Position numbers and translations under genes: made by a program. The notes beneath the pieces are model-generated. The model saw only the letters and a list, made by a program, of their open reading frames with translations. It was not told the DNA's origin and searched no databases. Of a DNA stretch of 64,000 nt, positions 2,844 through 63,153 are shown piece after piece; position 1 is the first letter of the stretch; every line of letters begins with the position of its first letter. This DNA comes from an uncultured Clostridia bacterium (GTDB lineage: Bacteria > Bacillota > Clostridia > Christensenellales > UBA3700): assembly GCA_947177795.1 (NCBI GenBank), contig CAMWVR010000002.1, positions 25,764 to 89,763 of the forward strand, in the 5' to 3' direction.

Positions 2844-4085
2844 ATGGATCTTCAAAAATTGAGAGATAACAGTGACGCCCAAGCCGATTACATGATGGAG
2901 GAGATTACCACTATAATCAAGACTTGCGGCAAGCGCTTGCCGGGCAGCGAGGGCGAAAAAAACGCCGTCGATTATATGGCAAACACCTTGAAAGAATACA
3001 GCGACGAAGTCAAAATCGAACCTTTTGAAATGCACCCAAAGGCGTTTTTCAATTGGATACATATCATGGTTACGATAATTCTCTTGGCAATGGTAAGTTA
3101 TTTTTTCATACCGCTTCTTGCCATAATTTTGGTAGGCGTCGCAATGCTTTTGATGCTTTTGCAATTCGTGCTTTATCTTGAGATCGTAGATTGGATCTAT
3201 CCAAAGCGTACTTCGCACAATCTCATGGCTGTCAAGCATCCAAAAGGCGAAGTCAAGAGAAGAATACTCTTTAACGGACACCCCGACGTAGCCCACGAAT
3301 GGACTATGAGCTATCTCATCAGCGGAGACGCATTCGTCGCTCACTTTGTTATATCTATGGTGGGCATCGTTGCGTTGACGGGTATATCTATCGCATCAAT
3401 CGTGTTGCAGGGCGGCGTAAGCTTTGCAGTCGCAAACACGTCAGTGGCAAACGGAGTGCCTATGATAATGGGCTTGGTGTGCTTGATATTCGTTCCGTTC
3501 TGGATAGCAATGTATAGAATGTGGAACACAAGCGTAATCGTCGACGGCGCAAACGACAACCTCACAGGTTGTTATATGGGCATTGCCGTAATGAAAGCTC
3601 TGCACGACGAGGGCATAGAACTTGAAAATACCGAAGTCGGCGTACTTTTGACGGGCAGTGAAGAAGCAGGCATCAGAGGCGCAAGAGCATGGGCTAAGAG
3701 ACACGGCGCAAGCGGAGATTACAAAGACGTAGAGACTATAATCTACGCTTACGATACTTTGAGAGAGGGCAAGTTCCTTTGCGTCAATAGAAAGGACCTC
3801 AACAACACAGTCAAAGCCGATAAGCACGCAAGCGAATTGTTCTACAATGCGGCAAAGAGCATTGACGTCGCTTGTTCTTACGGATCGGTGCCTCTCGGCG
3901 CTACCGACTCTGCGGCATTTAACAAGGGCGGTTACCAAGCGGTAGGTATCACGGCGCTCGACCATAAGTTGCGCAATTACTATCACACCAGATACGACAC
4001 TTATGACAATATGGATAAACAATGTCTATCCGATTGCTATAAGGTCACCGTGAAGACTCTTGAGGACTTCGACGACGGCAAATAA
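2844..4085 (+). CDS. M28-family metallopeptidase with internal membrane segments
   Basis: 413 aa. It has an N-terminal PA/M28-like start (GSEGEKNAVDYMANTL), several hydrophobic helices, and the metal-ligand-like motifs NGHPDV, DNLTGC and LLTGSEEAGIRGA. Confidence 0.65.
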   Translation: MDLQKLRDNSDAQADYMMEEITTIIKTCGKRLPGSEGEKNAVDYMANTLKEYSDEVKIEPFEMHPKAFFNWIHIMVTIILLAMVSYFFIPLLAIILVGVAMLLMLLQFVLYLEIVDWIYPKRTSHNLMAVKHPKGEVKRRILFNGHPDVAHEWTMSYLISGDAFVAHFVISMVGIVALTGISIASIVLQGGVSFAVANTSVANGVPMIMGLVCLIFVPFWIAMYRMWNTSVIVDGANDNLTGCYMGIAVMKALHDEGIELENTEVGVLLTGSEEAGIRGARAWAKRHGASGDYKDVETIIYAYDTLREGKFLCVNRKDLNNTVKADKHASELFYNAAKSIDVACSYGSVPLGATDSAAFNKGGYQAVGITALDHKLRNYYHTRYDTYDNMDKQCLSDCYKVTVKTLEDFDDGK

Positions 4086-4143: not shown

Positions 4144-4352
4144 TTCAACAAAATTCTAATTTACTTTTAATTTAATGCAAAATTTTCATATTTCCAAAAA
4201 AAGTATACTTTTCTTGACCGCCTGCGAAAAGGCGTATTTTTACGATTACATTATACTTCACGAACAATTAATTTGCAATATCTTTAAGTCAGTAAAAGTA
4301 TACTTTTTTTGGAATTTGTAAAGACAAAAGACTAATATAGCGGGGTAACGAC

Positions 4353-7300
4353 GTGAAATTAAATAAATTAAAAAAATGTCTATTTGGAACTTTGATGATA
4401 AGCGTACTGTTGTTGGCTATAATGACGGCGACGACGCTTTTCGTTCCTGCGCAAGAAATAGCGCAAGCGGATACCGAAACGAGCGACATCGGCAAGATCA
4501 CGGTGGACGGATATGAATCAAATCCCACTTCAAAGGTTTTTAACGGCGATAAATTGAGGAGTTTATACAGTCAAATCGTAGGTAAAGAAAACGCAACTTA
4601 CGCCGATCTTGTAAAAAAACTGTCAGATGCGACTGACAACAAAATGTGCAGCGCAGATTTCAGAACGACAAGCATAGACGGCAAAGAAATTTACGTTACG
4701 ATAGACGGTATGAAATGGGCTGCAATGTATCTTGCCAACAACAAGAGCGGACAGCCTGTGCTGACTTTGTGGCTTGTGGATTCCAACGATATTGACGATT
4801 CAAATTATTCTTCGTATGTATATAATGATTATACGGCAAGTTCATTAGGTGATTATCCTGCTCTTATGTATGCTACGAGTCAGTTGCGAGCAATTTGTCT
4901 CAACAATGGCGGTATATATGGCACAAGCATTACGACGTATGATACTGCGGTACAAAAAGCAGATCATCCATTTGCTAAGTTTACTATGCCCAACGGTACT
5001 TATGACGGAGTGGAACTTAAGGGAAGTTTGTATGATTTTATTGAAATTCCCGAGCAAATGGAATGGCAGGAATTTGAGTCGTCAGAAAAAAATGGCGATC
5101 CGGATCCCACTAACTATGAAAATGACGCTTGGTCTACCGAAGTAAATGTTTTTAAATCTTTAAATAGAACACCTTTGACAGATATAGTTGGTTATAGTAA
5201 TTGGAATAAAGATAAACTTTGGGTACCTAGTTATGCAGAATCAGGATATTATGTCAGGAATTATTCTTATAGAGGCATGTGGCGAGAATCCGACGAAGTA
5301 TTCGATAGTAGTTCGTATTATTGGACGAGAAGTGTACCTCCCAGCAGATATTCCGACGCTTATTCTAATAAGGGTAGTTCAAGTATTGTTACTACAACTT
5401 GGAATATTCGTCCTGCTTTTCACTTAAATTTGTCTGAAGTGGAAAAAAGTACAACCGTTGCTGTGCCAAGTCAAGGCGAAAAGAAAAAAGATTTTTATAT
5501 CGACGATAATACCGACTTGGAGTTTAATCTCAACGGCGTTGATACGACGAAGTTAGATATTACGTGCGTTTCTCAACCTGTGAGCGGAGAGACAGCGGGG
5601 ACGATGACTTATAAGGCAAGTACTTTTGGACTTGTTACGCTCAAAGCAAGCAAAGTCGGTAAGTATACCGTCACGGTTAAGCCCAAGAACGGAGAATGTT
5701 GGAGTAGCGGTACGGCAACTCCCGTCGAATATACGTTTTATATCAAATACTTGGTCGACGAACCTGCATTGATTGGACAGACAGGAGCGTTGTCGATAAG
5801 CAAAAATTACGCCGACGGCGAACAAGAAATCAAGTTTGCAAAAGAGTTTTACGACGCGACCAAATATGACATTAAACCAAATACTTCGCCTAGCGGACTT
5901 ACTTTTGACGATTCAAGCGGAGAAGCCATATTCAAAGTCAAGGACGCAGACACGTATACTGCGTCGGTAGAATTAAAAGATAAGACGTTGATGGAATGGA
6001 ACGCAGACAATCTCGATACGTCCAAGGTGTCGGGCGATACTGCCAACAAAACCATTACCATAACAATTCAACCTAGGTTGTTAATGATCTCCCTAGACCC
6101 TAACGGAGCCTGGAGTGTGCCTTATGGCGAAGTTGGCAGTTTTGCTTTCACTGACGACAGAGTTAATACCGACGACGTCATCAGATTTACGACGACTTAC
6201 GCCTTAAAAGACGGTAGTGGCAGTTCTGTCACGTTGACGAATACAACGACTGGTAATAGGACGGAGTTCAGTATTCCGCCAAGTTTGGCAAAAGGCGTAT
6301 ATGAATTGAGCATAACTCTCAATTCGTCGGGACAGGGCAAAAATTACGTTCTCAACGGCAGTCCTATCAAAAAAGAGTTTTCGGTAGTGGATAAAGAAAT
6401 AGACCTTGAGCAAGCCGATATAATATGGGGATATGAGAATTTGCGAGTGTCCAATGGCGAATGGCAAAGGTTAGGAGCGTGGGATAATAATACTGTTGTT
6501 CTTAATTACACGGGCGCAGAATTTAAGTGGAGCGTCGACGAAATTGCGTTGGCACAAAAGGGCGTAAAAGTAGATTACGACGGTTTAGGATACGAGAATG
6601 CGGTAGCTACGAATAGCGGAAGCGCAATCTATACGACGACCGTGCACTTGTTGCCTATAGTCGAGACGAGTATTTTGAATACTAAGACCTTTACTATCAA
6701 GTGGAAAATCGATCAAGGTTTATACGATTTGTCGGGAGTATCTTGGGACTATGCCGACGGCGAGTTGGAATATACGGGCAGAGGACAGGAAGTGAAATTG
6801 ACGGGATTGCTGTCTTCGTTAGTACCGCAGTATACGGGCAACAGACAGACCAACGTCGGCGACAACTATTTGGCAAAGGTCAATGGATTTGTCAACAACG
6901 ATAGCAATTTTAAAGATCCCGATATCAACGACCCTACTACGTATATCTATAAAGACGGCGAGACTTTCCCGTGGGAACTCGTATGGAAGATAGTCAAGAA
7001 GAAAATATCGCTGTCATGGGAAGCAAAAGAGGCTGTGGACGTCAACGGCCGTAATTTCACTTATTACGTGGCTGCGGGCGAAGATGCCGACAAGATCAGC
7101 GGATACGAATACTATAGAGGCGACGATTACAGCAGTAGCGGCGGCGGAAGTGCGACGGGCAGTCCTATAAAATTCGAGGACATAGTAGTCGTAGAGAAAC
7201 AAGTTGACAGCTATTGGGCGGTAGCTATATTGTCGGCGGAGTACGACAATAATTACGAGATCGTAAGCAACAAGGCGAGACTGTTCTCTGTGGGCTCGAC

Positions 7301-9242
7301 AAACGACGAAGTTAAGGTAGAACTCAACGGCGGCAATCATAAGTATACTTATGACGGCAATGCGCACGGCAACGAGTTGAAAGTCACGACAAGCGCGTTG
7401 AGCGTAAACGATATCGTCAAGACGTACTATAGAGGCAGCGAGGTAAACGAAAATAACAGGCTTGAGGGAGCACCGACTGACGCAGGTAAGTATTTGCTTG
7501 TGATGAGCTTAAGCGCGCAAGACGAAGAGGACTTTGTATTGTCGACGAGCAGAATAGAATTTGAGATAGAGAAAGCTAAGATAATGGCGGTATGGAATAC
7601 CGAGGGGCAAATCCCCGTGATATCCAACTTGAACGATAATCTCAAAGAGATAGTAGGATATATCTATTACGATGCGGAGGGCAATCAACTTGAGGACGGA
7701 GCTCAACTCGAAGTAGGCAAGACTTACAGCGTCAAGGCAATACTCAAGGGAGATTACGGGAAGAACTATGAGTTCGTAGCTCAAGACGGAGAGACGGTGC
7801 TTGACGACCCGACTACGACGGAAGAAGAGGAGTTTACCGTCAAGGATAGCAACAACGGCGACGGTAACGGCATAGGCGGAGTAGGCAGCGGAAACCAAGG
7901 CGGAGACGGTAACGGCAGCGGAAACGTCAACTTTGACAACGTAGGCGAGATACTTAAGCAGTGGTGGCAAGTCATCGCAAGTGCAGTAAGCATAATATTG
8001 ATAATAATATTTATGAGCAAAGGCATAGGCTACGCCAACAAGCGAAAGAAAGCCAAGAGGACGACGGAGAAATACGCCAACTATTACGCAGGCGCAACGG
8101 GCTTGTTTGGACTCGCAATGACGGCTTGGACTGCAATAGCTTGTACGCTTATGGGCGTGGCGGTATTGAGCCTTGTCTTTATGATAATCGAGAAATCGCT
8201 CAACAACAAGGCGCAAGAAGAGCTTGAAGACGCAAGAGACGAGTACGATCGCAACAGAGCTGAGGTCGAAGAGAGAAAACGCGACGAAAATATGCGCATG
8301 ATGTTTATGGGCATGATGGGCGGTCAAAGCGGCAACGGCAATATGGGCGGCGGTTACGTCGTGCAACAAGGACTCGGGGCGGACGAGATAAGAGGCATAG
8401 TATCAGAGACTATGACGGCATTGCTCCCGGGTATGCAACAGCTTTTGCCTCAACAGGCGTCTTCCAATGACGAAGTCATAAAGAGCCTTATAGAAGGACA
8501 AAAAGCAATAATGGAAAAACTTGCCGAGCAATCTTCCGAAAAGGTTGTCGTCGAGAGAGAAGTCGCAAGCGCAGGCATGGTGGGCGTGGTAGGAGTGACA
8601 AACTCTAACGACGAAACTATCAAAAAACTTGCCGAGGGACAAGATTTGATTATGCAATGCCTTGCTCAACTCACAAAAGACAAAGTTGAAGACCAAAAAG
8701 AAAAAATCGTCGAGAAGATTGTCGAAGTACCCGTGGAGAAGATAGTCGAGGTACCTGTCGAAAAGGTTGTAGAAAAGGTAGTGGAGAAAGAAGTAAAAGT
8801 CAAAGTAACCGCTCCTGCAAAGCCAAAGATAGAAAAAGTTCCGAGACTTACTTTAGACGAGGCTTACGCATTGCTCAGCAAAGAGCAAAAGAAATACTTT
8901 GACGGATTGAGAGACTACGCTCTTACTAAGTATAAGTGCAAAGAGAAGAAGTCGACGTACTTCGTAGTCTACGGACAGACGAGTACCAATCCATTGGTCA
9001 AGCTGACGATAAAGAAAGACACGACGGTAGCACTCTTGAAAATGGAAGACGAGTATATGAAAGACATCAGAAGAGACGCAACGGGAGACGGAACTAAGAT
9101 CAAGGTCAAAGAGACGGAAGTCGTGGTAAGCGACGCTCAAGCATGCAAAGCGGCAAAGAATATGATAGACCTTAGGGAAGATCAGATTGAGAGGTATGCC
9201 GACTTGTTAAAAGAACAAAGGGCGATGAAGAGTAAGAAATAA
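4353..9242 (+). CDS. Giant (1629 aa) secreted/membrane-anchored protein: signal peptide, about 1200-aa adhesin-like ectodomain, TM region, and about 400-aa coiled-coil/repeat tail
   Basis: GTG start and signal peptide (MKLNKLKKCLFGTLMISVLLLAIMTATTLFVPAQEIAQA). A W..RS...IRPAFHLNL motif resembles DUF6273-type surface domains, and there are beta-rich Ig-like segments. An MBG-like unit is present (YTYDGNAHG...TDAGKY). The TM block is WWQVIASAVSIILIIIFM + KRKKAKR + ATGLFGLAMTAWTAIACTLMGVAVLSLVFMII. The tail holds a G/M-rich stretch, a duplicated L(I/A)EGQ..IM motif, and EKIVEVPVEK repeats. Confidence 0.8.
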   Translation: MKLNKLKKCLFGTLMISVLLLAIMTATTLFVPAQEIAQADTETSDIGKITVDGYESNPTSKVFNGDKLRSLYSQIVGKENATYADLVKKLSDATDNKMCSADFRTTSIDGKEIYVTIDGMKWAAMYLANNKSGQPVLTLWLVDSNDIDDSNYSSYVYNDYTASSLGDYPALMYATSQLRAICLNNGGIYGTSITTYDTAVQKADHPFAKFTMPNGTYDGVELKGSLYDFIEIPEQMEWQEFESSEKNGDPDPTNYENDAWSTEVNVFKSLNRTPLTDIVGYSNWNKDKLWVPSYAESGYYVRNYSYRGMWRESDEVFDSSSYYWTRSVPPSRYSDAYSNKGSSSIVTTTWNIRPAFHLNLSEVEKSTTVAVPSQGEKKKDFYIDDNTDLEFNLNGVDTTKLDITCVSQPVSGETAGTMTYKASTFGLVTLKASKVGKYTVTVKPKNGECWSSGTATPVEYTFYIKYLVDEPALIGQTGALSISKNYADGEQEIKFAKEFYDATKYDIKPNTSPSGLTFDDSSGEAIFKVKDADTYTASVELKDKTLMEWNADNLDTSKVSGDTANKTITITIQPRLLMISLDPNGAWSVPYGEVGSFAFTDDRVNTDDVIRFTTTYALKDGSGSSVTLTNTTTGNRTEFSIPPSLAKGVYELSITLNSSGQGKNYVLNGSPIKKEFSVVDKEIDLEQADIIWGYENLRVSNGEWQRLGAWDNNTVVLNYTGAEFKWSVDEIALAQKGVKVDYDGLGYENAVATNSGSAIYTTTVHLLPIVETSILNTKTFTIKWKIDQGLYDLSGVSWDYADGELEYTGRGQEVKLTGLLSSLVPQYTGNRQTNVGDNYLAKVNGFVNNDSNFKDPDINDPTTYIYKDGETFPWELVWKIVKKKISLSWEAKEAVDVNGRNFTYYVAAGEDADKISGYEYYRGDDYSSSGGGSATGSPIKFEDIVVVEKQVDSYWAVAILSAEYDNNYEIVSNKARLFSVGSTNDEVKVELNGGNHKYTYDGNAHGNELKVTTSALSVNDIVKTYYRGSEVNENNRLEGAPTDAGKYLLVMSLSAQDEEDFVLSTSRIEFEIEKAKIMAVWNTEGQIPVISNLNDNLKEIVGYIYYDAEGNQLEDGAQLEVGKTYSVKAILKGDYGKNYEFVAQDGETVLDDPTTTEEEEFTVKDSNNGDGNGIGGVGSGNQGGDGNGSGNVNFDNVGEILKQWWQVIASAVSIILIIIFMSKGIGYANKRKKAKRTTEKYANYYAGATGLFGLAMTAWTAIACTLMGVAVLSLVFMIIEKSLNNKAQEELEDARDEYDRNRAEVEERKRDENMRMMFMGMMGGQSGNGNMGGGYVVQQGLGADEIRGIVSETMTALLPGMQQLLPQQASSNDEVIKSLIEGQKAIMEKLAEQSSEKVVVEREVASAGMVGVVGVTNSNDETIKKLAEGQDLIMQCLAQLTKDKVEDQKEKIVEKIVEVPVEKIVEVPVEKVVEKVVEKEVKVKVTAPAKPKIEKVPRLTLDEAYALLSKEQKKYFDGLRDYALTKYKCKEKKSTYFVVYGQTSTNPLVKLTIKKDTTVALLKMEDEYMKDIRRDATGDGTKIKVKETEVVVSDAQACKAAKNMIDLREDQIERYADLLKEQRAMKSKK

Positions 9243-9659
9243 TAGATATTTCGACTTCGCTACGCTCCGCTCAATATGACTCGTTTGAAGCGAGAGTCAC
9301 GCCTTGAATGCGTCACTCTGAGCGAAACGAAGTGAAGTCGAAGAGTCTAATTTAATAATGTCATTTCGACCAAAGCGTAGCGTCGTGGAGAAATCTCAAC
9401 TGATATAAAAATGATTAGACCTCTCCGCTACGGTCGGTCGAGGTGACGAACACACCTCATCACCGCCTACGGCGGAGCTTCCCCTCAAGGGGAAGCCGAG
9501 GCACGGATATTTTCTGTCACTGACGCTCGCTACGTCCTCGCACCTGCTTGCTCGCTATGTACGACTACGTTACACTATGCTCATGGTGACTCGTTTAAAG
9601 CGAAAGTCACACATTCAACGAGTCATATTGAGCGGAACGAAGTGTAGTCGAAATATCTA
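9243..9659. repeat. Composite repeat block: 5 type-1 structured units, module-3 sequence and two extra perfect hairpins, bounded by inverted TATT-box units
   Basis: Units: 9243-9280 (-, TATT/AATA), 9312-9349 (+, CTCT/AGAG), 9360-9396 (+, TTTC/GAAA), 9416-9447 (-, CCTC/GAGG), 9622-9659 (+, TATT/AATA). Extra hairpins are CCGCC-TAC-GGCGG and GCTTCCCC-TCAA-GGGGAAGC (about 9463-9497). Positions 9516-9560 match the reverse complement of 32105-32150. Confidence 0.9.
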
Positions 9660-14338: not shown

Positions 14339-14365
14339 CGACCGCATATATCGGCGCAATCAAAT

Positions 14366-14525
14366 GTCATTTCGACCGAAGCGTAGCGAAGTGGAGAAAT
14401 CTCAACGATATAATAAAATAGATTAGATTTCTCGACTGCGCTCGAAATGACTCGTTCAAGGTTTTACTTTCGATTCAAACGAGTCACCCTGAGCGTAGTC
14501 GAAGGGGCTGATCCGTTCGAAATGA
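14366..14525. repeat. Type-1 structured repeat cluster (3 complete units plus 1 truncated)
   Basis: Units: 14366-14402 (+, TTTC/GAAA, 16-nt loop), 14424-14451 (-, TTTC/GAAA, loop CGCAGT), 14483-14509 (+, CCCT/AGGG, loop CGTAGT). There is a truncated head in minus orientation at 14515-14525. Confidence 0.9.
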
Positions 14526-14610: not shown

Positions 14611-15378
14611 TTAATCCATAAATTGCGCAACCAAATCTTTCATTGAGTATTTGCCGCTTTGTTTTGTTGCGAGGAAGAGTCCTGCGCGTATTGCGCCTTG
14701 AGCGAATACCATTCTCGATTGCGCTTCGTGCTTTATCGTGATGACTTCGTCTTTGCCGATGAAAAGCACGTCGTGCTTGCCGACGATAGTTCCGCCTCTC
14801 ACGGCGTGGATACCTATCTCTTTGTTTTGGCGTTTGCTGTCCTTGCCTTGTCTGCCGTAGACGAATTCTTTGGAGTTGTCGAATTCTTCGTTAATGGCGT
14901 TGGCGATTGACAGGGCGGTGCCTGACGGAGCGTCAACCTTTTGATTATGGTGCTGTTCGATGATTTCCACTTCAAAGTTGTTGCCGAGGAAGTTTGCAGC
15001 CTTGCGGCACAATTCTATCATGAGATTTACGCCCAGCGACATATTGCTGGATTGGAATACTGCAATGCTCTTGCTTGCCTCGTCGATTTTTGCCTGTTGT
15101 TCTGCGGTATATCCCGTGGTGGCAAGCATGATTCCCGTCTTGTGGGCAAGAGCGTATTCAAGTATTTCGTTCAAAGCGTCGGGACGGGAAAAATCTATTA
15201 TCACGTCGGCATTGACGTTGATATCCTTTCCGCATTTAAATACGGGTACGGAGAATTGCTTAGCGTCGGCGAATTTATCCACGCCGCCCACGCATTGAGC
15301 GTTTTCAAAAGAGGGGAGACATTCGAGAATATTTCTTCCCATTTTACCGCCGATACCCCAAATTAAAATCTTTGTCAT
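14611..15378 (-). CDS. dapB: 4-hydroxy-tetrahydrodipicolinate reductase
   Basis: 255 aa with an N-terminal GxxGxxG-like motif (IWGIGGKMGRN), the EIIEQHHNQKVDAPSGTA signature, and HAVRGG. Confidence 0.92.
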   Translation of the reverse strand: MTKILIWGIGGKMGRNILECLPSFENAQCVGGVDKFADAKQFSVPVFKCGKDINVNADVIIDFSRPDALNEILEYALAHKTGIMLATTGYTAEQQAKIDEASKSIAVFQSSNMSLGVNLMIELCRKAANFLGNNFEVEIIEQHHNQKVDAPSGTALSIANAINEEFDNSKEFVYGRQGKDSKRQNKEIGIHAVRGGTIVGKHDVLFIGKDEVITIKHEAQSRMVFAQGAIRAGLFLATKQSGKYSMKDLVAQFMD

Positions 15379-17371: not shown

Positions 17372-17597
17372 AAAAAACGCTCTGCCATACAATAGGCAAA
17401 GCATTAAAGTTGACAATTGGATAGATATTGTCAGTTTAAGCGCTTCACCTGATTGACTAGGTGACAGTCGCAGGGTTGTTCACCGTAGCGACCAACCGCA
17501 TATCTCGCAAGATTGATATACGATTTCGGCAAAATATCCTTTCTTGGGTGCGTCTTGTCGCATTTTTCCCAATACTATTATATTCTGCGCCTCTGTA
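17372..17597 (-). promoter_or_regulatory. Lysine riboswitch (L-box) with terminator expression platform, leader of asd-dapA-dapB
   Basis: The minus strand reads ACAGAGGCGC..AGTA..GGGAA..GAAAGG..GCCGAA..TGG..ACTGTCAC-CTAGTCAATCAGG-TGAAGCGC, matching the conserved L-box blocks. It is followed by the hairpin GCTTTGCC-TATTGTAT-GGCAGAGC plus TTTTTT (17372-17402), and lies directly upstream of lysine-pathway genes. Confidence 0.8.
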
Positions 17598-17689
17598 AAC
17601 TTAAGAGTATATTATCATATTATTTAAGATATGTAAAGCGATTTGCAATCAAAACATTTTGGAAATTTATGTAACGCTGTCGCCGTGAC

Positions 17690-26251: not shown

Positions 26252-26280
26252 GAATGGAAGATTTATTCATAGTAAGTAAC

Positions 26281-26408
26281 CGAGCGCGTATATCAGCCGT
26301 CTTTTGGTCCTAACGTCGGGACTCAAGAAGTCGACGTGTACGGCAAGTACACTTGACGACTTCGTTTCGCCCTAGCACGGACAAAAATACGACTAATCTC
26401 CACGCTCG
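26281..26408 (+). repeat. Type-2 long-hairpin element (128 nt) with terminal inverted repeats CGAGCG(C/T)G
   Basis: The left and right halves are largely complementary around the apical hairpin GTGTAC-GGCAA-GTACAC. It shares blocks with 51872-51996 and 61774-61933: CGAGCGCGTATA, TCTTTTGG, CGTTTCGCC and CACGGACAAAAATA. Confidence 0.85.
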
Positions 26409-26426
26409 CATGTGGCTTATAATTTT

Positions 26427-26518
26427 GTCATTGACGCTCGCACGAGACAATCTAGCTTTATGTATTATGACAAATATTAGTGTCATTTCGACTGAAGCGT
26501 AGCGGAATGGAGAAATCT
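26427..26518 (+). repeat. Type-1 repeat units (1 variant plus 1 canonical)
   Basis: 26427-26454 is GTCATTGACGCTCGCACGAGACAATCTA, with ATTG/CAAT boxes around module-3 sequence. 26482-26518 is canonical, with TTTC/GAAA boxes and a 16-nt loop. Confidence 0.85.
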
Positions 26519-26567
26519 CAACAGAATAATAATATTACCGTCGCAAAGCGACAAAGGAGCGTGTCCC

Positions 26568-27472: not shown

Positions 27473-27545
27473 GAGACCTTTCGACTACGCTCAAGATGAC
27501 GTTTAGATGTCATTTCGACCGTAGCGTAGTGCAGTGGAGAAATCT
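27473..27545. repeat. Type-1 repeat pair
   Basis: 27473-27500 is minus orientation, with boxes TCTT/AAGG (one G.T-type pair) and loop CGTAGT. 27509-27545 is plus orientation, TTTC/GAAA, with a 16-nt loop. Confidence 0.85.
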
Positions 27546-27574
27546 CAACCGATTAAATAGATGTCTATGCAATA

Positions 27575-27613
27575 AAAAGATTATAATTGAACATTGTTCA
27601 ATTATAATCTTTT
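27575..27613 (+). terminator. 39-nt near-perfect AT-rich palindrome, possible terminator or boundary hairpin
   Basis: AAAAGATTATAATTGAACA-T-TGTTCAATTATAATCTTTT. The core ATAATTGAAC...GTTCAATTAT is shared with 28645-28673. Confidence 0.45.
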
Positions 27614-27637: not shown

Positions 27638-28618
27638 ATGAAAAGCAAAACAAAGTACTTATTGAATCAAGAGCAGATAACTGGTATCTTCAACAAAGCG
27701 CACTTGGGGCAAGTGGAAAATTATTATGCTCTTGGCGCAGGCGAATTTAACTCTGTGTATTGTATAAAAATTCAAGGCTCGGAGTTGGAATACGTACTAA
27801 AAATCGCTCCCCGTGACGGTCAAGACGTATTGACGTATGAAAAAGATATGCTTGACGTCGAACTCAAGTGGTATGACGAAATTGCTAAAAATACTGATAT
27901 CAAGGTACCTAAGATATACTTTAGCGACTTTTCAAGACAAGTAATTGATGCTCCGTACTTTATTATGGAGAAATTGAACGGTGTTCAATTGGATAAAATC
28001 GGCATAGATTCGACTGACAAGCTTGCGCAAATGGCGTCTCAGATACATAAGATCAAAAATGATAAGCACGGTTATGAGCAAAATTCGTTATACGATAATT
28101 GGTATCTTGCAATAAGGTCTATGACGGAGAATTTGGTAAAAGATGCTGCGTTAAAAGGTCGTAAGAGCAAGCGTGGACAGAGACTGTTAGAATATATAGA
28201 CAAATTTAAATGCGTACTTGAAGAAGCGCCTTGTTGTATGGTCAATTTTGACTTATGGACGCCCAACGTGATATGCGATAAGGATACAAATGGCGAATAT
28301 ACCTATGCTTGGATAGACCCCGAACGCACTTTTTGGGGAGATTACGTCGCAGATTTCGTGGCTTTGGAGTTTGGTAGATATATAGAGGACAAGAAGATTG
28401 CAATAGACGCTTATAATGCAGTTGCGCAGACTCCGTTAGTCATTACCGATAAAATTAAAGTCAGATATTACGTAATGGAAGCCTACGTAGCTTTGATACA
28501 GGAAGTAGAGAAGTATTATAGATATTCTTTATTTAATTACGGTTGGTATCGCAACGTATTTTCTTCGAAATTTTTATATAATCGCGCTTTCAAGTTCTTG
28601 CAAAGCGTTCAATTCTAA
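27638..28618 (+). CDS. Phosphotransferase-family kinase (APH/choline-kinase-like fold)
   Basis: 326 aa with a Brenner-like catalytic block (VNFDLWTPNV) and the downstream WIDPERTFWGDYVADF motif. The usual His of HxDxxxxN is replaced by Phe. Confidence 0.65.
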   Translation: MKSKTKYLLNQEQITGIFNKAHLGQVENYYALGAGEFNSVYCIKIQGSELEYVLKIAPRDGQDVLTYEKDMLDVELKWYDEIAKNTDIKVPKIYFSDFSRQVIDAPYFIMEKLNGVQLDKIGIDSTDKLAQMASQIHKIKNDKHGYEQNSLYDNWYLAIRSMTENLVKDAALKGRKSKRGQRLLEYIDKFKCVLEEAPCCMVNFDLWTPNVICDKDTNGEYTYAWIDPERTFWGDYVADFVALEFGRYIEDKKIAIDAYNAVAQTPLVITDKIKVRYYVMEAYVALIQEVEKYYRYSLFNYGWYRNVFSSKFLYNRAFKFLQSVQF

Positions 28619-28644
28619 TTAAATTACAAAATGATTGACCTATT

Positions 28645-28673
28645 TGCATAATTGAACCTTGTTCAATTATGCA
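28645..28673. terminator. Hairpin between the convergent kinase and XRE genes (possible bidirectional terminator)
   Basis: TGCATAATTGAAC-CTT-GTTCAATTATGCA, a 13-bp stem with no clear U-run. Confidence 0.4.
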
Positions 28674-28683
28674 ATTATTAATT

Positions 28684-31930: not shown

Positions 31931-32189
31931 TAGATTTCTCGACTGCGCTCGAAATGACATAAAAAGTTTGGTAGATGTGACATAGAGAATAAACTAAGTG
32001 ACAAATCTTCTGTCATTTCGACCGAAACGAAGTGAAGCGGAGAAGTCTCTACAGTCAACGAGTCACTCTGAGCGAAACATAGTGTAGACGTAAGGAGCGT
32101 AGCGACGGCATAGCGAGCAAGCAGGTGCGTCTCGTGCGAGCGTCAGAGTCTAATACGGATATAGACCTCTCCGCTACGGTCGAGGTGAC
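31931..32189. repeat. Type-1 repeat cluster between ffh and rpsP (4 units, including one long-loop variant)
   Basis: Units: 31931-31958 (-, identical to 14424-14451), 32012-32047 (+, TTTC/GAAG, G.T-type), and 32062-32152 (+, CTCT/AGAG boxes about 75 nt apart enclosing module-3 sequence). The fourth unit is 32162-32189 (-, CCTC/GAGG, loop CGTAGC). Confidence 0.88.
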
Positions 32190-35144: not shown

Positions 35145-35277
35145 GTCATTTTGACGACAATATTTTGTCATTTCGACCGAAGTGGAGAAATCTAAATCAA
35201 TGTGGAAAGAGACCTCTCGACTACGCTCGAGGTGACATATGTATATTTAGCTAAATAAAATTAAGTCGAAGAGTCTA
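35145..35277. repeat. Type-1 repeat cluster between rbgA and rnhB
   Basis: A truncated head at 35145. Complete units at 35167-35194 (+, TTTC/GAAA, loop CGAAGT) and 35209-35236 (-, CCTC/GAGG, loop CGTAGT). An isolated tail AGTCGAAGAGTCTA at 35264-35277. Confidence 0.85.
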
Positions 35278-47838: not shown

Positions 47839-47873
47839 TAAATAAGAAATATAAAAATTTCAATATCCGTTAC

Positions 47874-47911
47874 GTCATATTGAGCGTAGCGCAGCGGAGT
47901 CGAAATATCTA
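47874..47911 (+). repeat. Type-1 repeat unit upstream of hisS
   Basis: GTCA-TATT-GAG-CGTAGCGCAGCGGAGT-CGA-AATA-TCTA. Confidence 0.88.
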
Positions 47912-47942
47912 AAAACAAAAAGATACAGTAAAGAGGCAGAAA

Positions 47943-49216: not shown

Positions 49217-49320
49217 TAGACCTTTCGACTACGCTCAAGGTGACATTTTGATATGTCGTTTCGACTAGTCTAAAGTCATTTCGACTAGCCAATGTCATTT
49301 CGAGCGCAGTCGAGAAATCT
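49217..49320. repeat. Type-1 repeat cluster between hisS and aspS
   Basis: 49217-49244 (-, CCTT/AAGG, loop CGTAGT), degenerate heads at 49255 and 49276, and 49294-49320 (+, TTTC/GAAA, loop CGCAGT). Confidence 0.88.
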
Positions 49321-49409
49321 CAAACAGATTATATATGTTTGAGACGAACCCAACACATAATACTGATAAAATAATAATTATAATAATTAAAATAATAGAG
49401 GATAATAAT

Positions 49410-51206: not shown

Positions 51207-51884
51207 ATGTTTTCACGTACCCAAAAACTCATAGGAGAGGACGGCTTGCAAAGACTCTTTGCAAGCAAAGTCCTCGTCGTCGGCGTGGGGGGAGTAGGCG
51301 GATATGCCGTCGAAATGCTTGCCCGCGCGGGCGTCGGTACGTTGGGAATTATGGATGGAGATTTGGTGGATATCTCCAACAAAAACCGTCAGATAATAGC
51401 GCTTGATTCCACCGTGGGAAAACCCAAGGTGGAGGCTTTAAAGGAGAGAATACTCGATATAAATCCTTGTTGTAACGTAATTTTGTTCAACGAGCGTTTT
51501 TCCGCAGACAACTCCAATGTTTTGGATATGGAGTGGGACTATATAATCGACGCCATAGACTCTTTTGAAGACAAAGTGGATTTGATTTGCCTTGCTAAAA
51601 GAAAGGGCATTGAAATAATCAGCGCTATGGGCGCGGGCAACAGAGTTGAACTTTGCGACTTTGAGATATGCGATATATACAAGACGAGTTACGATCCATT
51701 GGCAAAAAAACTCCGAAAGGCGCTCAAAGACAGAGACGTAAATAATCACGTCGTGTGCTATACAAAGACGCCTACAATTCCGACGACAGACGGAGTGGGA
51801 AGCGTAAGTTATATACCTCCGCTTTGCGGAATTAAAATTGCGGGGTACGTTATTCAAAAAATACTTCAAGACGAGCGCGTATAG
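51207..51884 (+). CDS. tcdA: tRNA threonylcarbamoyladenosine dehydratase (TcdA/CsdL, ThiF/E1-like)
   Basis: 225 aa with the Rossmann motif VLVVGVGGVGGYAVEMLARAGVG and DxD...NRQ. The last 4 codons and the stop lie inside the type-2 repeat. Confidence 0.75.
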   Translation: MFSRTQKLIGEDGLQRLFASKVLVVGVGGVGGYAVEMLARAGVGTLGIMDGDLVDISNKNRQIIALDSTVGKPKVEALKERILDINPCCNVILFNERFSADNSNVLDMEWDYIIDAIDSFEDKVDLICLAKRKGIEIISAMGAGNRVELCDFEICDIYKTSYDPLAKKLRKALKDRDVNNHVVCYTKTPTIPTTDGVGSVSYIPPLCGIKIAGYVIQKILQDERV

Positions 51885-51996
51885 CGTCACTCTTTTTGCC
51901 CTAAAAACTAGGACGCACTCGGGGTCACGTACAGAAAGTACGCTCACCGCTCGTTTGCCGTTTCACGGACAAAAATAGCAACACTCTCCGCGCTCG
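51872..51996 (+). repeat. Type-2 long-hairpin element (125 nt) overlapping the 3' end of tcdA
   Basis: Terminal inverted repeats are CGAGCGCG (51872-51879) and CGCGCTCG (51989-51996). The apical hairpin is ACGTAC-AGAAA-GTACG. It shares blocks with 26281-26408. Confidence 0.85.
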
Positions 51997-55905: not shown

Positions 55906-55991
55906 GTCATTTCGCTGGACACTGCGAAATGGAGAAATCTCAATCCTTACGTCGTCATTTCGACCGTAGCGTAGCGAAGCGGAGAAATCTA
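55906..55991 (+). repeat. Type-1 repeat pair after glyA
   Basis: 55906-55940 is a variant with TTTC/GAAA boxes, the 5' GA replaced, and an inner ATTTCGC/GCGAAAT stem. 55954-55991 is canonical with TTTC/GAAA boxes and loop CGTAG-CGTAG-CGAAG-C. Confidence 0.85.
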
Positions 55992-56010
55992 AAACAATAT
56001 CAACAGCATT

Positions 56011-61773: not shown

Positions 61774-61933
61774 GTTTGGCGATAAGCGAGGCGTCGCAAG
61801 TTTACACGGCAATAATGCTTACTCTACGTCTTCAAACTCACTTGACGTACAGCAAGTACGCCTGCATTCGTTTTCATCGTATAGAAAACATTCTTACTCG
61901 TGATAATCTTACGCCGCTCCCTTATCGCCAAAC
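61774..61933 (+). repeat. Type-2-related long-hairpin element (160 nt) with 13-bp perfect terminal inverted repeats
   Basis: The TIRs are GTTTGGCGATAAG...CTTATCGCCAAAC. The apical hairpin is CGTAC-AGCAA-GTACG. Internal blocks resemble 26281-26408. It starts 1 nt after the lepA stop. Confidence 0.8.
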
Positions 61934-61969
61934 TTGACGAGTGAGTATATAACTAATTCAAATTAATAT

Positions 61970-61996
61970 GTCATCTCGACCGAAGCGGAGAGATCT
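61970..61996 (+). repeat. Type-1 repeat unit
   Basis: GTCA-TCTC-GAC-CGAAGC-GGA-GAGA-TCT. Confidence 0.88.
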
Positions 61997-62019
61997 CAAT
62001 CAGTATAAATCTCAACATT

Positions 62020-63153
62020 ATGACACAAATCAAGCCAAGTCTAGGAATTTATATTCATATACCTTTTTGCAAGTCGCGTTGCATATACTGCGACTTTGTT
62101 TCTTCTGTCGACGACTGCTCGCAGAGAGATAAATACGTCGAGTATCTTTGCAGACAGATAAGGTCGGCGAGCGAGGATTTTTCCGACAAATATACTGTCG
62201 ACACGATTTACTTCGGCGGCGGTACGCCGACTTTGCTTGACGATAAGCAGTTTGATTTGATAAGCAAAGAGATTTTTAAGCGTTTCCATTGCGCTCTTAA
62301 GGAGTTTTCAGTCGAGGCAAATCCCTGCACTATTGATAGAGAAAAATTGATTACGCTTAAGAATATTGGAGTCACAAGACTGAGCATAGGCGTTCAGAGT
62401 TTTAATGACGAATTGCTCAAGATGCTTGGCAGACGGCACGACGCAAGGCGCGCAGAGGATGCGATCAGACTTGCCGTCGAGCTGGGATTTGACGTAAGCG
62501 TTGACGCAATGATAGGCTTGCCTAATCAAACAAAATTCGACGTCAAAGATTTTATAGACAGAGCCGATACGTTGGGAGTAGAGCATATATCGGTATATAT
62601 GTTGAGCGTAGAGGAAGGCACTGGGCTCAAAAGTCTTATCGAGCAAGGCAAGCTCATCGCCAAGAACGACGACCAACTTGCCGATTTGTATGAATACGCT
62701 TGTCTTTGTCTCAAAGAGCGAAATTTTCAAAGATACGAAATCTCCAACTTTTGCAAGAATCAAAAGGTGTCTCATCACAATTTGCGTTATTGGCAACGTC
62801 TAGATTATTTGGGACTCGGTATGGGCGCGCATTCTTTGACGAACGGAGAGCGATGGAATAATTCCGATAATTTCAAAGATTATTACGACGGCGTAGACAA
62901 AGGCGATTGCCGTCGCAATATCCAAAAATTGAGCAAAGAAGATATAGAGAGCGAATATATCATGCTTGCGTTTAGATTGCAAAAGGGGATAGATCTGTCA
63001 GAATTTAATAAGAAGTTCGGCGAGAATTTTTTGATGAAGTATTCTAAGGCTATAAAAAAGAATCTGGAATTTCTTGAAGTCACTTCGACAAGCGTAGCCA
63101 TAAAAGATAAATATCTTCAACTTATGAATTCGATAATCGTAGATTTTATATGA
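62020..63153 (+). CDS. hemW: Radical SAM family heme chaperone HemW (HemN-like, oxygen-independent coproporphyrinogen oxidase family)
   Basis: 377 aa with YIHIPFCKSRCIYCDF (CX3CX2C), GGGTP, and a HemN C-terminal domain, in the canonical lepA-hemW position. Confidence 0.88.
   Translation: MTQIKPSLGIYIHIPFCKSRCIYCDFVSSVDDCSQRDKYVEYLCRQIRSASEDFSDKYTVDTIYFGGGTPTLLDDKQFDLISKEIFKRFHCALKEFSVEANPCTIDREKLITLKNIGVTRLSIGVQSFNDELLKMLGRRHDARRAEDAIRLAVELGFDVSVDAMIGLPNQTKFDVKDFIDRADTLGVEHISVYMLSVEEGTGLKSLIEQGKLIAKNDDQLADLYEYACLCLKERNFQRYEISNFCKNQKVSHHNLRYWQRLDYLGLGMGAHSLTNGERWNNSDNFKDYYDGVDKGDCRRNIQKLSKEDIESEYIMLAFRLQKGIDLSEFNKKFGENFLMKYSKAIKKNLEFLEVTSTSVAIKDKYLQLMNSIIVDFI

What the first reader, a model, noticed from the sequence alone, without database searches (positions are those of the whole stretch)
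26281..26408. Second repeat family: 125-160 nt long-hairpin elements with terminal inverted repeats, always just 3' of a plus-strand gene
Three related elements occur: 26281-26408 after smc, 51872-51996 at the end of tcdA, and 61774-61933 after lepA. They share ordered blocks: CGAGCGCGTATA..TCTTTT(T)G..apical (A)CGTAC-RRMAA-GTACG hairpin..CGTTT(C/G)CC..CACGGACAAAAATA..CTCC(A/G)CGCTCG. In each element the left half is largely complementary to the right half, for example CGAGCGCG/CGCGCTCG at the ends and TTTTGGTCC/GGACAAAAA inside. Each would therefore fold into one imperfect hairpin of about 55-70 bp. All three have the same orientation relative to the upstream gene, so they would be transcribed as 3' UTRs. 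The end motif CGAGCG echoes the GAGCG core of the short repeat, so the two families may be mechanistically related.
Basis: seen in the sequence. Interest (0 to 1): 0.65.

Follow-up and report, generated by a model that had tools for sequence, protein, structure and literature searches.

The report
Long hairpin repeats behind stop codons
The three hairpins are copies of an uncatalogued family of 120-200-nt palindromic repeats in gut and rumen Clostridia that sit directly behind stop codons, and their base pairing is preserved only on the strand opposite the genes, so they look like mobile single-stranded hairpin elements rather than ordinary 3'-UTR RNAs.

Summary
e1 (26281-26408) and e2 (51872-51996) are clear homologues. 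Collection scans and covariance models found the family at 36 distinct loci in uncultured Christensenellales-like and rumen Clostridia. No Rfam family, plasmid, phage or viral contig matches.

All copies have a conserved terminal helix, a conserved 3x3 internal loop, a second helix with fixed wobble pairs, freely swapped middle helices (18 of 39 pairs compensatory in one subtype) and an invariant apex.

Two features were unexpected:
- Pairing is kept on the strand antisense to the genes (97.7% against 84.5% standard pairs; G.U cells 81 against 5 and 48 against 5).
- The element is co-oriented with the upstream gene at 35 of 36 loci and starts at most 12 nt after its stop codon, or overlaps it, at 29 of 36.

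e1 is a lineage-specific insertion; close relatives have a 9-20-nt smc-ftsY spacer.

The bottom strand has no consistent promoter. My best reading is a REPIN/attC-like non-autonomous element whose bottom-strand hairpin is the propagated form. This is inferred, not shown.

The parts
26281..26408 (-). Element e1 (subtype A), 128 nt, 29 nt after the smc stop codon. The better-pairing ('S') strand is the minus strand, 5'-CGAGCGUGGAGA...UAUACGCGCUCG-3'.
   Evidence: Folding energy is -59.2 kcal/mol on the minus strand and -41.5 on the plus strand. Model R2 scores 144.5 bits on the minus strand and 37.8 on the plus strand. The element is absent from the 9-20-nt smc-ftsY spacer of relatives L047, L049 and L050.
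26273..26280 (+). TAAGTAAC motif directly 5' of e1, with stop codons in two frames. It recurs before other copies.
   Evidence: TAAGTAAC or TAAGTGAC precedes CGAGCG in e1, L006, L008, L010, L014 and L017. AGTAAC also precedes it in the metagenomic copies L026 and L045. In e1 it is not the smc stop codon, so it travels with the element or is a preferred target.
51872..51996 (-). Element e2 (subtype B), 125 nt. The tcdA (ThiF-family) ORF 51207-51884 runs 13 nt into it and stops at the TAG of CGTATAG.
   Evidence: Folding energy is -58.6 on the minus strand and -40.0 on the plus strand. The ORF end comes, and the Pfam ThiF match. Orthologous copies exist in L013 (95% identical genome) and L002. 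In L002 the flanks are 78-81% identical but the element is 93.6% identical.
61774..61933 (-). Element e3 (subtype E), 160 nt, fused to the lepA stop codon (0 nt gap). It has an extra outer helix GTTTGGCGAUAAG/CUUAUCGCCAAAC around a core with the family apex.
   Evidence: Folding energy is -70.3 on the minus strand and -53.6 on the plus strand. Orthologous elements lie in the lepA-hemW spacer of relatives with 93, 78, 77 and 75% HemW identity, and the apex ACGTACRGCAAGTACG differs at one position in one relative. Further subtype-E copies are at L021 5510-5706 and L002 4683-4809.
26426..26452 (+). Short repeat TGTCATTGACGCTCGCACGAGACAATC downstream of e1. It is an associated element and not part of the hairpin.
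   Evidence: The same motif follows long elements in L004 (second copy), L007 and L008.
26481..26520 (+). Short TGTC-tagged REP-like repeat (TGTCATTTCGAC...GGAGAAATCTCA), 73 nt downstream of e1.
   Evidence: It belongs to repeat family D1. A copy follows the long element in the same orientation in 15 of 19 loci.
61969..61998 (+). Short TGTC-tagged REP-like repeat, 35 nt downstream of e3.
   Evidence: The whole spacer that includes it is 96-99% identical to L021, although hemW falls to about 70-80%.

Best explanation
e1, e2 and e3 are copies of a dispersed, non-coding, non-autonomous palindromic element family of the MITE/REPIN kind, carried by Christensenellales-like gut Clostridia and rumen relatives.

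Read on the bottom strand, the architecture is fixed:
- an 8-bp terminal helix CGAGCGCG/CGCGCUCG (subtype E adds an outer GUUUGGCGA/UCGCCAAAC helix);
- a conserved 3x3 internal loop GAG/AUA;
- an 8-9-bp second helix with two conserved U.G wobbles;
- a middle helix whose sequence is freely replaced while pairing is kept;
- an invariant CGUAC-loop-GUACG apex.

Shown:
- The family expands and turns over. e1 is absent from close relatives, another copy sits after ftsY in one relative only, orthologous sites carry different subtypes, and decayed or one-armed copies exist.
- Pairing is maintained on the bottom strand, which is antisense to the flanking genes, and not on the mRNA strand.
- Copies are co-oriented with a gene and lie directly behind its stop codon.

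Inferred:
- The bottom strand has no consistent promoter, and terminators often stand between it and any upstream transcription. The entity under selection is therefore most likely the single-stranded bottom-strand hairpin used when the element is copied, either as ssDNA or possibly as RNA from a master copy. A strand-specific enzyme would recognise it, as RAYT recognises REP/REPIN DNA or IntI recognises the attC bottom strand.
- Surviving copies are those lodged just behind a stop codon, in the orientation that puts the weaker, A.C-mismatched version into the mRNA 3' UTR and onto the lagging-strand template.
- In the mRNA they act at most as passive or modest 3'-UTR hairpins.
For: Family size: 16 copies in 4 MAGs, 13 in metagenomes, and more found with models R1 and R2.

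Covariation: 8 of 37 pairs compensatory in A2 and 18 of 39 in A7. Whole helices are swapped between subtypes with pairing kept. The named structure beats the slid controls, 97.7% paired against 30-60%.

Strand asymmetry:
- The minus strand is more stable by 17-18 kcal/mol in e1, e2 and e3, by 7-26 kcal/mol in all 13 metagenomic copies, and by up to 36 kcal/mol in subtype E.
- G.U cells are 81 against 5 and 48 against 5.
- Wobbles are conserved at the same helix positions in subtypes A, B and D.
- The asymmetry also holds with DNA energy parameters, by 6-9 kcal/mol.
- Element GC skew is -0.09 to -0.29 against a genomic +0.06 to +0.19, so mutation bias does not explain it.

Mobility and turnover:
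- Empty smc-ftsY sites in L047, L049 and L050.
- A copy after ftsY only in L047.
- L008 and L010 are orthologous loci with different subtypes.
- The lepA-hemW site carries two variants that do not follow phylogeny.
- Decayed copies: L010 is chimeric, the second L004 copy is truncated, L013 has a 5-nt deletion, and right-arm fragments starting at the apex lie in L026, L031, L032, L034, L035 and L045.

No dedicated bottom-strand transcription: 3 of 36 copies have a sigma-70-like site upstream of the bottom strand. Terminators lie between the convergent gene and the element, or downstream of it on the plus strand.

Position and orientation: 35 of 36 loci are co-oriented with the upstream ORF, and 29 of 36 start at most 12 nt after its stop codon or overlap it.
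Against: - No mobilising enzyme was found. All 29 pattern hits are short elements, none flanks a gene, and the window ORFs tested carry no recombinase.
- No target-site duplication and no conserved target tetranucleotide were seen. IS200/IS605-type chemistry is therefore not supported.
- For known ssDNA transposons the active strand lies on the lagging-strand template. Here the folding strand is on the leading-strand template in 22 of 23 copies of the window's clade.
- A 10-14% wobble content is more typical of RNA than of DNA hairpins.
- Copies at tcdA and lepA-hemW persist across genomes whose flanking genes are only 75-81% identical, and they are better conserved than those genes. That could mean selection on each copy in place, that is a host function, rather than turnover.
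- This model does not explain mechanistically why copies hug the stop codon so tightly.
Confidence: 0.45

Rival explanations
1. Host cis-acting 3'-UTR RNA element on the plus strand. The hairpin is transcribed with the upstream gene. Because it starts within the footprint of the terminating ribosome, it would stabilise the mRNA 3' end, attenuate read-through, or modulate termination and ribosome rescue. E. coli REP sequences within about 15 nt of a stop codon are reported to do this (Liang, Rudd and Deutscher 2015, cited from my own knowledge).
For: The elements lie between the stop codon and the intrinsic terminator in L029 and L038, and a U8 tract directly follows the L042 copy. Co-orientation with the abutted gene is strict, even when the downstream gene is convergent. 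Spacing to the stop codon is 0-12 nt at 29 of 36 loci. Copies persist for a long time at the tcdA and lepA-hemW sites and are better conserved than the neighbouring genes. The plus-strand RNA still folds better than shuffles, with z from -3.0 to -6.9.
Against: On the plus strand 10-14% of the helix cells are A.C mismatches and only about 1% are G.U. This is the reverse of what purifying selection on an RNA helix gives. The second helix is largely open on the plus strand because of conserved mismatches. Many copies decay in place. The flanking genes are functionally unrelated. No U-tract follows the window copies.
Confidence: 0.2
2. A structured cis-antisense RNA. The minus strand would be transcribed from the downstream spacer or by read-through of convergent genes. 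The roughly 55-bp hairpin RNA would then act on the 3' end of the upstream gene or as a protein-binding small RNA.
For: The wobble pattern is exactly that of a selected RNA helix on the minus strand, and specific G.U pairs are conserved across deeply diverged subtypes. The asymmetry is larger with RNA than with DNA energy parameters. AT-rich TATAAT- or TATACT-like hexamers lie between the short repeat and the element in several copies.
Against: Only 3 of 36 copies have even a weak sigma-70-like -35/-10 pair upstream of the minus-strand hairpin, and none in a fixed position. In L028, L029 and L038 a terminator stands upstream of the element in the minus direction. No U-tract or other terminator follows the hairpin on the minus strand. 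Decayed copies argue against a function at each locus.
Confidence: 0.15
3. A recombination site of the attC type. The folded bottom strand, with a terminal helix, an unpaired spacer, a second helix and a variable tip, would be the substrate of a tyrosine or other hairpin-binding recombinase. The elements would mark exchangeable gene ends.
For: The layout matches integron attC sites: position at or overlapping the stop codon, co-orientation with the ORF, folding of the bottom strand, an R-box / unpaired spacer / L-box / variable-tip arrangement, conserved ends around a variable centre, and a placement that keeps the folding strand on the leading-strand template.
Against: The ends do not fit RYYYAAC...GTTRRRY. 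Subtype E has the two heptamer-like ends in the opposite order. No Rfam family matches even at E<=10. The flanking genes are syntenic housekeeping genes (smc, ftsY, lepA, hemW, tcdA), and the same gene order exists without the element. No integrase lies nearby.
Confidence: 0.1
4. Chance similarity among low-complexity spacers.
For: None. The only point in its favour is that e3 shares just a 17-nt apex with e2 when compared by BLAST.
Against: Dozens of copies in independent genomes share the architecture, with compensatory changes and E-values down to 1e-33.
Confidence: 0.01

Closest known systems
REPINs (REP doublets forming hairpins), mobilised by RAYT tyrosine transposases (Bertels and Rainey 2011, PMC3116915)
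   Same: Extragenic hairpins of about 100 nt. The ends are conserved and the middle is less conserved, being constrained mainly in length and pairing. Compensatory changes are common. The fold is predicted in ssDNA or mRNA. Each genome carries many copies. Copies persist at orthologous sites, and one-armed remnants occur (one search compared).
   Different: The arms are not copies of this genome's short REP. No GTAG tag is found consistently. No RAYT was found. REPINs are described as symmetric and randomly placed in extragenic space. These elements are strongly strand-asymmetric, co-oriented with a gene and pressed against its stop codon. REPINs are known mainly from Proteobacteria.
ERIC/IRU (127-bp) and Correia/NEMIS-type MITE-like palindromes transcribed into mRNA hairpins (from my own knowledge; mentioned in PMC3733652)
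   Same: Whole-length imperfect palindromes of 100-160 bp in transcribed intergenic regions. They fold in mRNA, and the two orientations fold differently because of G.U pairs.
   Different: Those elements occur in both orientations. Correia elements have TA duplications and known terminal inverted repeats. None is reported to abut stop codons systematically or to keep one orientation. There is no sequence similarity, and the host phylum differs.
Integron attC sites
   Same: They sit right after, or overlap, the stop codon and are co-oriented with the ORF. The bottom strand is the folded, recognised strand. The layout is a terminal helix, an unpaired spacer, a second helix and a variable tip, with a length of 57-141 nt.
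   Different: The consensus ends are absent. No integrase or cassette array is present. The flanking genes are core housekeeping genes in conserved synteny.
E. coli REP sequences within 15 nt of a stop codon that stall terminating ribosomes (Liang, Rudd and Deutscher 2015; from my own knowledge, not retrieved)
   Same: A stable hairpin repeat begins within the footprint of the terminating ribosome.
   Different: Those are hairpins of about 35 nt acting as plus-strand RNA. Here the mRNA strand carries the weakened version of the hairpin.
CGTC/TGTC-tagged REPs (Di Nocera et al. 2013, PMC3733652)
   Same: The short repeats that accompany the long elements start with (C/T)GTC followed by an AT-initiated stem, as that superfamily is defined. 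That superfamily also lacks a dedicated transposase and lies downstream of genes.
   Different: This comparison applies to the neighbouring short repeats and not to the long hairpin. That superfamily was not reported from Firmicutes.

Membership tests
MITE (miniature inverted-repeat transposable element) | Terminal inverted repeats | tested here: met
   CGAGCGCG/CGCGCTCG, or GTTTGGCGATAAG/CTTATCGCCAAAC in e3. The whole length is palindromic.
MITE (miniature inverted-repeat transposable element) | Target-site duplication flanking the element | tested here: not met
   No direct repeat flanks the 36 loci inspected. The e3 locus shows TG...TG, but other subtype-E loci do not.
MITE (miniature inverted-repeat transposable element) | An autonomous parent IS with the same ends | tested here: not met
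   All 29 true hits of the end-anchored patterns are short elements. There are no hits in plasmids, phages or viral contigs. Incomplete MAGs limit this test.
MITE (miniature inverted-repeat transposable element) | Presence/absence polymorphism between related genomes | tested here: met
   The smc-ftsY spacer is 317 nt with e1 and 9-20 nt without it. Only L047 has a copy after ftsY.
REPIN / REP-RAYT system | Two inverted REP units, each a short palindrome with a GTAG tag | tested here: not met
   The arms show no similarity to the genome's short REPs. GUAG occurs in the 3' arm of only some subtype-D copies.
REPIN / REP-RAYT system | Long hairpin with conserved ends, variable spacer and compensatory changes | tested here: met
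   compared with the definition.
REPIN / REP-RAYT system | A cognate single-copy RAYT (Y1 transposase) gene flanked by the repeats | not testable with these tools
   Only stretches of up to about 21 kb of the host genomes were available. None of the called genes there is a transposase.
IS200/IS605-derived element (PATE) | A conserved 4-5-nt target immediately 5' of the left end on the active strand | tested here: not met
   The 5' flanks are TAAC, TGAC, AGAC, TAAG, TAG, AAA, ATT and ACG. The 3' flanks are unrelated to one another.
IS200/IS605-derived element (PATE) | The active (folding) strand lies on the lagging-strand template | tested here: not met
   The folding strand is complementary to the G-rich leading strand in 22 of 23 copies of the window's clade.
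Integron attC | R''/R' consensus RYYYAAC ... GTTRRRY | tested here: not met
   The ends are CGAGCGCG...CGCGCTCG. In e3 they are GTTTGGC...GCCAAAC, the reverse order.
Integron attC | Bottom-strand folding, directly after the ORF and co-oriented with it | tested here: met
Integron attC | A neighbouring IntI integrase or an array of cassettes | tested here: not met
   The flanking genes are syntenic housekeeping genes, and no integrase was found in the window ORFs tested or in the loci.
Intrinsic (Rho-independent) terminator | A GC-rich hairpin followed directly by a U-tract | tested here: not met
   No terminator call falls on e1, e2 or e3 on either strand. Only one metagenomic copy (L042) has a T8 tract after it.
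Any Rfam 15 family | A covariance-model match | tested here: not met
   No hit at the gathering threshold in the window except a lysine riboswitch elsewhere. Only chance-level hits at E<=10 over e1 and e2. None over the subtype-D copies.

The most novel reading that the evidence does not exclude
The elements are substrates of a so far unrecognised strand-specific single-strand (hairpin) insertion or recombination system in Firmicutes. In this reading the system recognises an attC-like folded bottom strand and places copies at the first nucleotides after a stop codon, co-oriented with the gene. That would imply a mechanism or a very strong filter coupled to the end of translation or transcription, with repeated re-insertion at the same site: new copies lie next to the stop codon and older one-armed remnants are pushed downstream.
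Probability: 0.2. Interest if true: 0.8.

Novelty: new variant of a known kind. Interest (0 to 1): 0.6.

Why it matters
Palindromic intergenic repeats such as REP, REPIN, ERIC and Correia elements are known mostly from Proteobacteria. How they spread and what they do is still debated. This family extends the kind to uncultured gut and rumen Clostridia.

It offers three unusually clean signals that constrain the mechanism:
- pairing selected on one DNA strand only, the one antisense to the genes;
- near-absolute co-orientation with the upstream gene;
- a start within a few nucleotides of that gene's stop codon.

If the bottom-strand hairpin is the propagated form, the family is a tractable case of strand-specific single-strand mobility outside integrons and IS200/IS605. 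If instead the bottom strand is transcribed, it is a new widespread antisense RNA class.

In practice the elements inflate intergenic spacers, for example smc-ftsY from about 15 to 317 nt. They can supply the stop codon and last codons of genes such as tcdA. They are likely to cause assembly breaks and ORF mis-calls in MAGs.

Tried and rejected
- Rfam at the gathering and E-value thresholds over the window, e1, e2 and five metagenomic loci: no family.
- Intrinsic terminator: no U-tract on either strand in the window.
- Dedicated minus-strand promoter: the tool scan and my own scan of 36 copies found only 3 weak sites at inconsistent positions.
- Coding potential: the frames are not conserved. 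e1 has a GTG start on the minus strand, but e2 has GCG at the same place (read).
- Target-site duplication and a conserved target tetranucleotide (IS630-type or IS200/IS605-type): not found.
- attC consensus: absent.
- Mutation bias as the cause of the wobble asymmetry: rejected. The genome's skew (G>C on the plus strand) predicts wobbles on the plus strand, the opposite of what is seen.
- Search for an autonomous parent or an extrachromosomal carrier: all pattern hits are short elements, and viral contigs, plasmids and phages gave nothing.
- Exact empty-site mapping: the spacers of relatives are too diverged to define insertion junctions to the base.
- Exact-protein look-up of FtsY returned only identical loci.
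- Literature search for the stop-codon REP paper and for Firmicutes palindromic repeats found no description of this family.
- Group II intron domain V resemblance (GCCGUAUAC / GUACG): considered and dropped as a short chance similarity.
Full report
**1. What is at the coordinates**

- e1 (26281-26408) lies 29 nt after the 1196-aa smc ORF and before ftsY.
- e2 (51872-51996) overlaps the last 13 nt of a ThiF-family (tcdA) ORF, which stops at the TAG of CGTATAG.
- e3 (61774-61933) starts at the nucleotide after the lepA stop codon.

e1 and e2 align along their whole length. They share CGAGCGCGTATA, CACGGACAAAAATA and TCTCCRCGCTCG, and each of the first two occurs exactly twice in 64 kb.

e3 has none of these blocks. 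Its ends are GTTTGGCGATAAG/CTTATCGCCAAAC. By sequence it shares only the apical ACGTAC-loop-GTACG stem and a few neighbouring bases.

All three fold into one long imperfect hairpin better than shuffled controls. No Rfam family matches.

**2. The family is large and widespread**

An exact-pattern scan of one genome per species found 16 further copies in four uncultured Clostridia MAGs, plus one chance hit in Neobacillus.
- One MAG (SC0369_comb_17) is 95.3% identical to the window over 8 kb and carries the e2 orthologue.
- FtsY is 78% identical to that of Candidatus Caccalectryoclostridium, so the host is Christensenellales-like.

A two-anchor pattern in metagenomes gave 13 true copies, plus 8 GC-rich coding false positives. 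These 13 form a new subtype, here called D. It has the same ends (CGAGCGCGTATAGCGGCAC ... GCACCACTCTCCGCGCTCG), the same apex stem and the same length (122-124 nt), but entirely different inner helices.

Covariance models built from subtype D (R1) and from subtypes A and B (R2) detect each other's members at E of 1e-7 to 1e-13.
- They find additional diverged copies: L016 2437-2564, L002 2114-2238, L047 10595-10719 and L031 3829-3937.
- They give weak hits, in the same orientation, to e3-type elements in relatives.
- They find no fourth copy in the window, and neither does an inverted-repeat scan.

e3-type elements (subtype E) are themselves multi-copy. One lies at L021 5510-5706 after another gene, and another at L002 4683-4809. 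Their inner arm, AUUUUUUGUCAAG, recalls UAUUUUUGUCCGUG of e1 and e2. Grouping e3 with e1 and e2 is therefore justified, but as a distant subtype.

Viral contigs, plasmids and phages gave nothing.

**3. Structure and covariation**

RNAalifold on 18 copies of subtypes A and B predicts 37 pairs, 8 of them with compensatory double changes. On 12 subtype-D copies it predicts 39 pairs, 18 of them compensatory.

For a hand-named set of 32 palindrome pairs, 97.7% of cells are standard pairs. With the partner slid by 1-3 columns the figure is 30-60%.

Between subtypes whole helices are replaced with pairing kept. For example, UUUUUGUCC/GGRCAAAAA is replaced by GGAUUUCGCUU/AAGCGGAAGGC in L016.

The constant features, read on the minus strand, are:
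- an 8-bp terminal helix;
- a 3x3 internal loop GAG/AUA;
- a second helix AGUGSUG.../...CGCU with U.G wobbles at fixed positions;
- a CGUAC-(5-6 nt)-GUACG apex, closed by an invariant G.U in subtype D.

**4. The pairing is on the other strand**

- Every copy folds much better as the minus strand, which is antisense to the flanking genes.
  - e1: -59.2 against -41.5 kcal/mol. e2: -58.6 against -40.0. e3: -70.3 against -53.6.
  - All 13 metagenomic copies: better by 7-26 kcal/mol.
  - Diverged copies: -51.9 against -33.0 and -55.7 against -47.6.
  - Subtype E: up to -87.9 against -51.8.
- Counting the same pairs on both strands gives 97.7% against 84.5% standard pairs.
- G.U cells number 81 against 5 in A2 and 48 against 5 in A7. 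Wobbles are spread over 15 against 5 and 12 against 5 pair columns.
- The single-base mismatches left on the minus strand include no A.C.

On the mRNA strand the helices therefore carry 10-14% A.C mismatches and about 1% G.U, the reverse of a selected RNA helix.

Mutation bias cannot explain this. The window's plus strand is the G-rich leading strand (skew +0.07 to +0.12), while every element has C>G on that strand (-0.09 to -0.29).

The asymmetry persists with DNA energy parameters, at 6-9 kcal/mol. A bottom-strand DNA hairpin therefore remains possible.

**5. Position and orientation**

I inspected 36 distinct loci.
- At 35 of them the element is co-oriented with the nearest upstream ORF.
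- At 29 it starts at most 12 nt after that ORF's stop codon or overlaps it.
- At 26 the gap is at most 5 nt or the element overlaps the stop codon.

In subtype D the downstream gene is often convergent. The orientation therefore follows the gene whose stop codon is abutted.

The spacing between the stop codon and CGAGCG varies (0, 1, 2, 3, 5, 11 nt). In general the stop codon is thus not part of the element. Even so, a TAAGTAAC or AGTAAC motif with stops in two frames recurs before many copies, including e1, where it is not the smc stop. In four loci the ORF uses the element's own TAG.

The one inverted copy (L002 2114-2238) lies beyond a terminator, next to a 2-kb stretch without ORFs.

In L029 and L038 an intrinsic terminator follows the element on the plus strand. 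In L042 a T8 run follows it directly. The plus-strand version is therefore certainly part of the mRNA 3' UTR.

**6. Gain, loss and turnover**

- The smc-ftsY spacer is 317 nt in the window. It is 20, 17 and 9 nt in relatives with 94, 84 and 78% FtsY identity, and 127 nt without an element in an 89% relative. e1 and the accompanying short repeats are therefore a lineage-specific insertion.
- The 94% relative instead has a copy 1 nt after the ftsY stop codon, which the window lacks.
- Orthologous loci L008 and L010 (86% identical) carry different subtypes, and L010 is chimeric with non-pairing arms.
- The lepA-hemW site is occupied in all five relatives examined (HemW identity 75-93%). It holds two variants that do not follow phylogeny, and one of them is the variant found at a different gene in L021.
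- Decayed copies are common: a truncation (second L004 copy), a 5-nt deletion (L013), and right-arm-only fragments that start at the apex and lie just downstream of intact copies in six metagenomic loci.
- On the other hand, e2 is 93.6% identical to its orthologue in a genome whose flanking genes are 78-81% identical. The e3 spacer is 96-99% identical to L021, where hemW is about 70-80%. Either the elements are replaced or converted often, or they are under selection in place.

**7. How it most likely works**

Shown: it is a dispersed, expanding and decaying repeat family. Its pairing constraint is on the bottom strand. It is co-oriented with a gene and lies behind that gene's stop codon.

Only 3 of 36 copies have even a weak sigma-70-like site upstream of the bottom strand, and terminators often stand in the way. 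I therefore infer that bottom-strand transcription of each copy is not what maintains the structure.

The most economical reading has three parts.
- The bottom-strand hairpin is the form recognised when the element is copied. That makes it a non-autonomous single-strand element in the manner of REPIN/RAYT or of the attC bottom strand.
- Selection then keeps the insertions that do no harm: just behind a stop codon, in the orientation that leaves the weak, A.C-interrupted version in the mRNA and on the lagging-strand template.
- The near-perfect 55-bp version is thereby kept away from terminating ribosomes, RNase III and hairpin-cleaving nucleases.

Weak points:
- No enzyme, no target-site duplication and no target motif were found.
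- The folding strand is on the leading-strand template, the opposite of the IS608 paradigm.
- A 10-14% wobble content looks more like RNA.
- The model does not explain how tightly copies hug the stop codon.

I put this explanation at 0.45. The rivals are a plus-strand 3'-UTR function (0.2), a transcribed antisense RNA (0.15) and an attC-like recombination site (0.1).

**8. Comparison with known families and novelty**

The closest kinds are REPINs, ERIC/Correia-type transcribed palindromes and, in layout only, integron attC sites. Defining features of each were tested and several are not met:
- no REP-doublet composition and no RAYT;
- no target-site duplication and no parent IS;
- no attC consensus and no integrase;
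- no conserved IS200/IS605-type target.

I therefore do not file the family as a member of any of them.

The neighbouring short repeats fit the CGTC/TGTC-tagged REP superfamily as described in PMC3733652.

I found no description of the long family in Rfam or in the searched literature. I rate it a new variant of a known kind, palindromic intergenic repeats. It has three unusual and well-supported properties: antisense-strand pairing, strict co-orientation with the upstream gene, and abutment of the stop codon.

Noticed in passing
window 9359-9413, 14365-14419, 26481-26535, 27508-27562, 32011-32065, 35166-35199, 47873-47927, 49293-49326, 55953-56007, 61969-62023 and reverse-oriented copies (e.g. 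27474-27508, 35210-35244, 49218-49252): Short repeats (C/T)GTCAT-TTCGAC...GGAGAAAT-CTCA are very abundant; the scan reported at least 60 direct-repeat families. The outer 5-bp stem covaries (ATTTC/GAAAT, ACCTC/GAGGT, ATATT/AATAT, ACTCT/AGAGT). The next two positions could form tandem G.A pairs on the strand that starts with TGTC. They fit the CGTC/TGTC-tagged REP superfamily, which PMC3733652 did not report from Firmicutes.
   Followed up: partly
window 26426-26452; also L004 about 2810-2835, L007 and L008 downstream of long elements: A third short repeat, TGTCATTGACGCTCGCACGAGACAATC, recurs between the long hairpin and the TGTCATTTCGAC repeat.
   Followed up: no
window 17431-17603 (-): A lysine riboswitch (RF00168, 84.3 bits) lies upstream of minus-strand ORFs. 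One of them, 14611-15378, is DapB.
   Followed up: partly
window 4192-4314: A long inverted repeat of unknown function lies just upstream of the 1629-aa ORF 4353-9242. The arms are 27 nt and 93% complementary, with 69 nt between them: TTCCAAAAAAAGTATACTTTTCTTGAC / GTCAGTAAAAGTATACTTTTTTTGGAA. It is unrelated to the family studied here.
   Followed up: no
window 27575-27613: A perfect 19+19-nt palindrome, AAAAGATTATAATTGAACA/TGTTCAATTATAATCTTTT, lies just upstream of ORF 27638-28618 (APH family). It could be an operator or promoter. A related TTGAAC/GTTCAA palindrome is at 28641-28677.
   Followed up: no
L002 1-2100 (MAG Mgla_MAG_39-bin_5, contig JAAVHS010000004.1): About 2 kb has no convincing ORF on either strand and no Rfam match at the gathering threshold. 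It adjoins the only inverted copy of the element.
   Followed up: partly
L013 6174-6201 compared with window 51872-51884: In the 95%-identical MAG a 5-nt deletion inside the element (CGAGCG-----AGCG) removes the TAG that ends tcdA. The ORF then runs 17 nt further into the element. Element decay therefore changes the C-terminus of a housekeeping protein.
   Followed up: partly
L026 1710-1780, L045 (reverse strand of about 2960-3036), L031, L032, L034, L035 downstream of intact copies: Right-arm-only fragments of older elements, starting at or next to the apical GTAC, lie 15-40 nt downstream of intact copies. In L045 the fragment belongs to a different subtype from the intact copy. This suggests repeated insertion at the stop-codon side, with breakage at the hairpin tip.
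   Followed up: partly
window 61808-62107 compared with L021: The lepA-hemW spacer (element, AT-rich spacer, short repeat) and the first 100 nt of hemW are 94-99% identical between two genomes. The rest of hemW is about 70-80% identical and lepA about 90%. This means either strong constraint on the whole spacer or a recent recombination tract.
   Followed up: partly
L026, L029, L045 immediately 3' of the element: A G-rich motif YTGGGGARGGG directly follows CGCGCTCG in three metagenomic copies, two of them (L026, L045) probably orthologous. It may be an extension of that subfamily.
   Followed up: no
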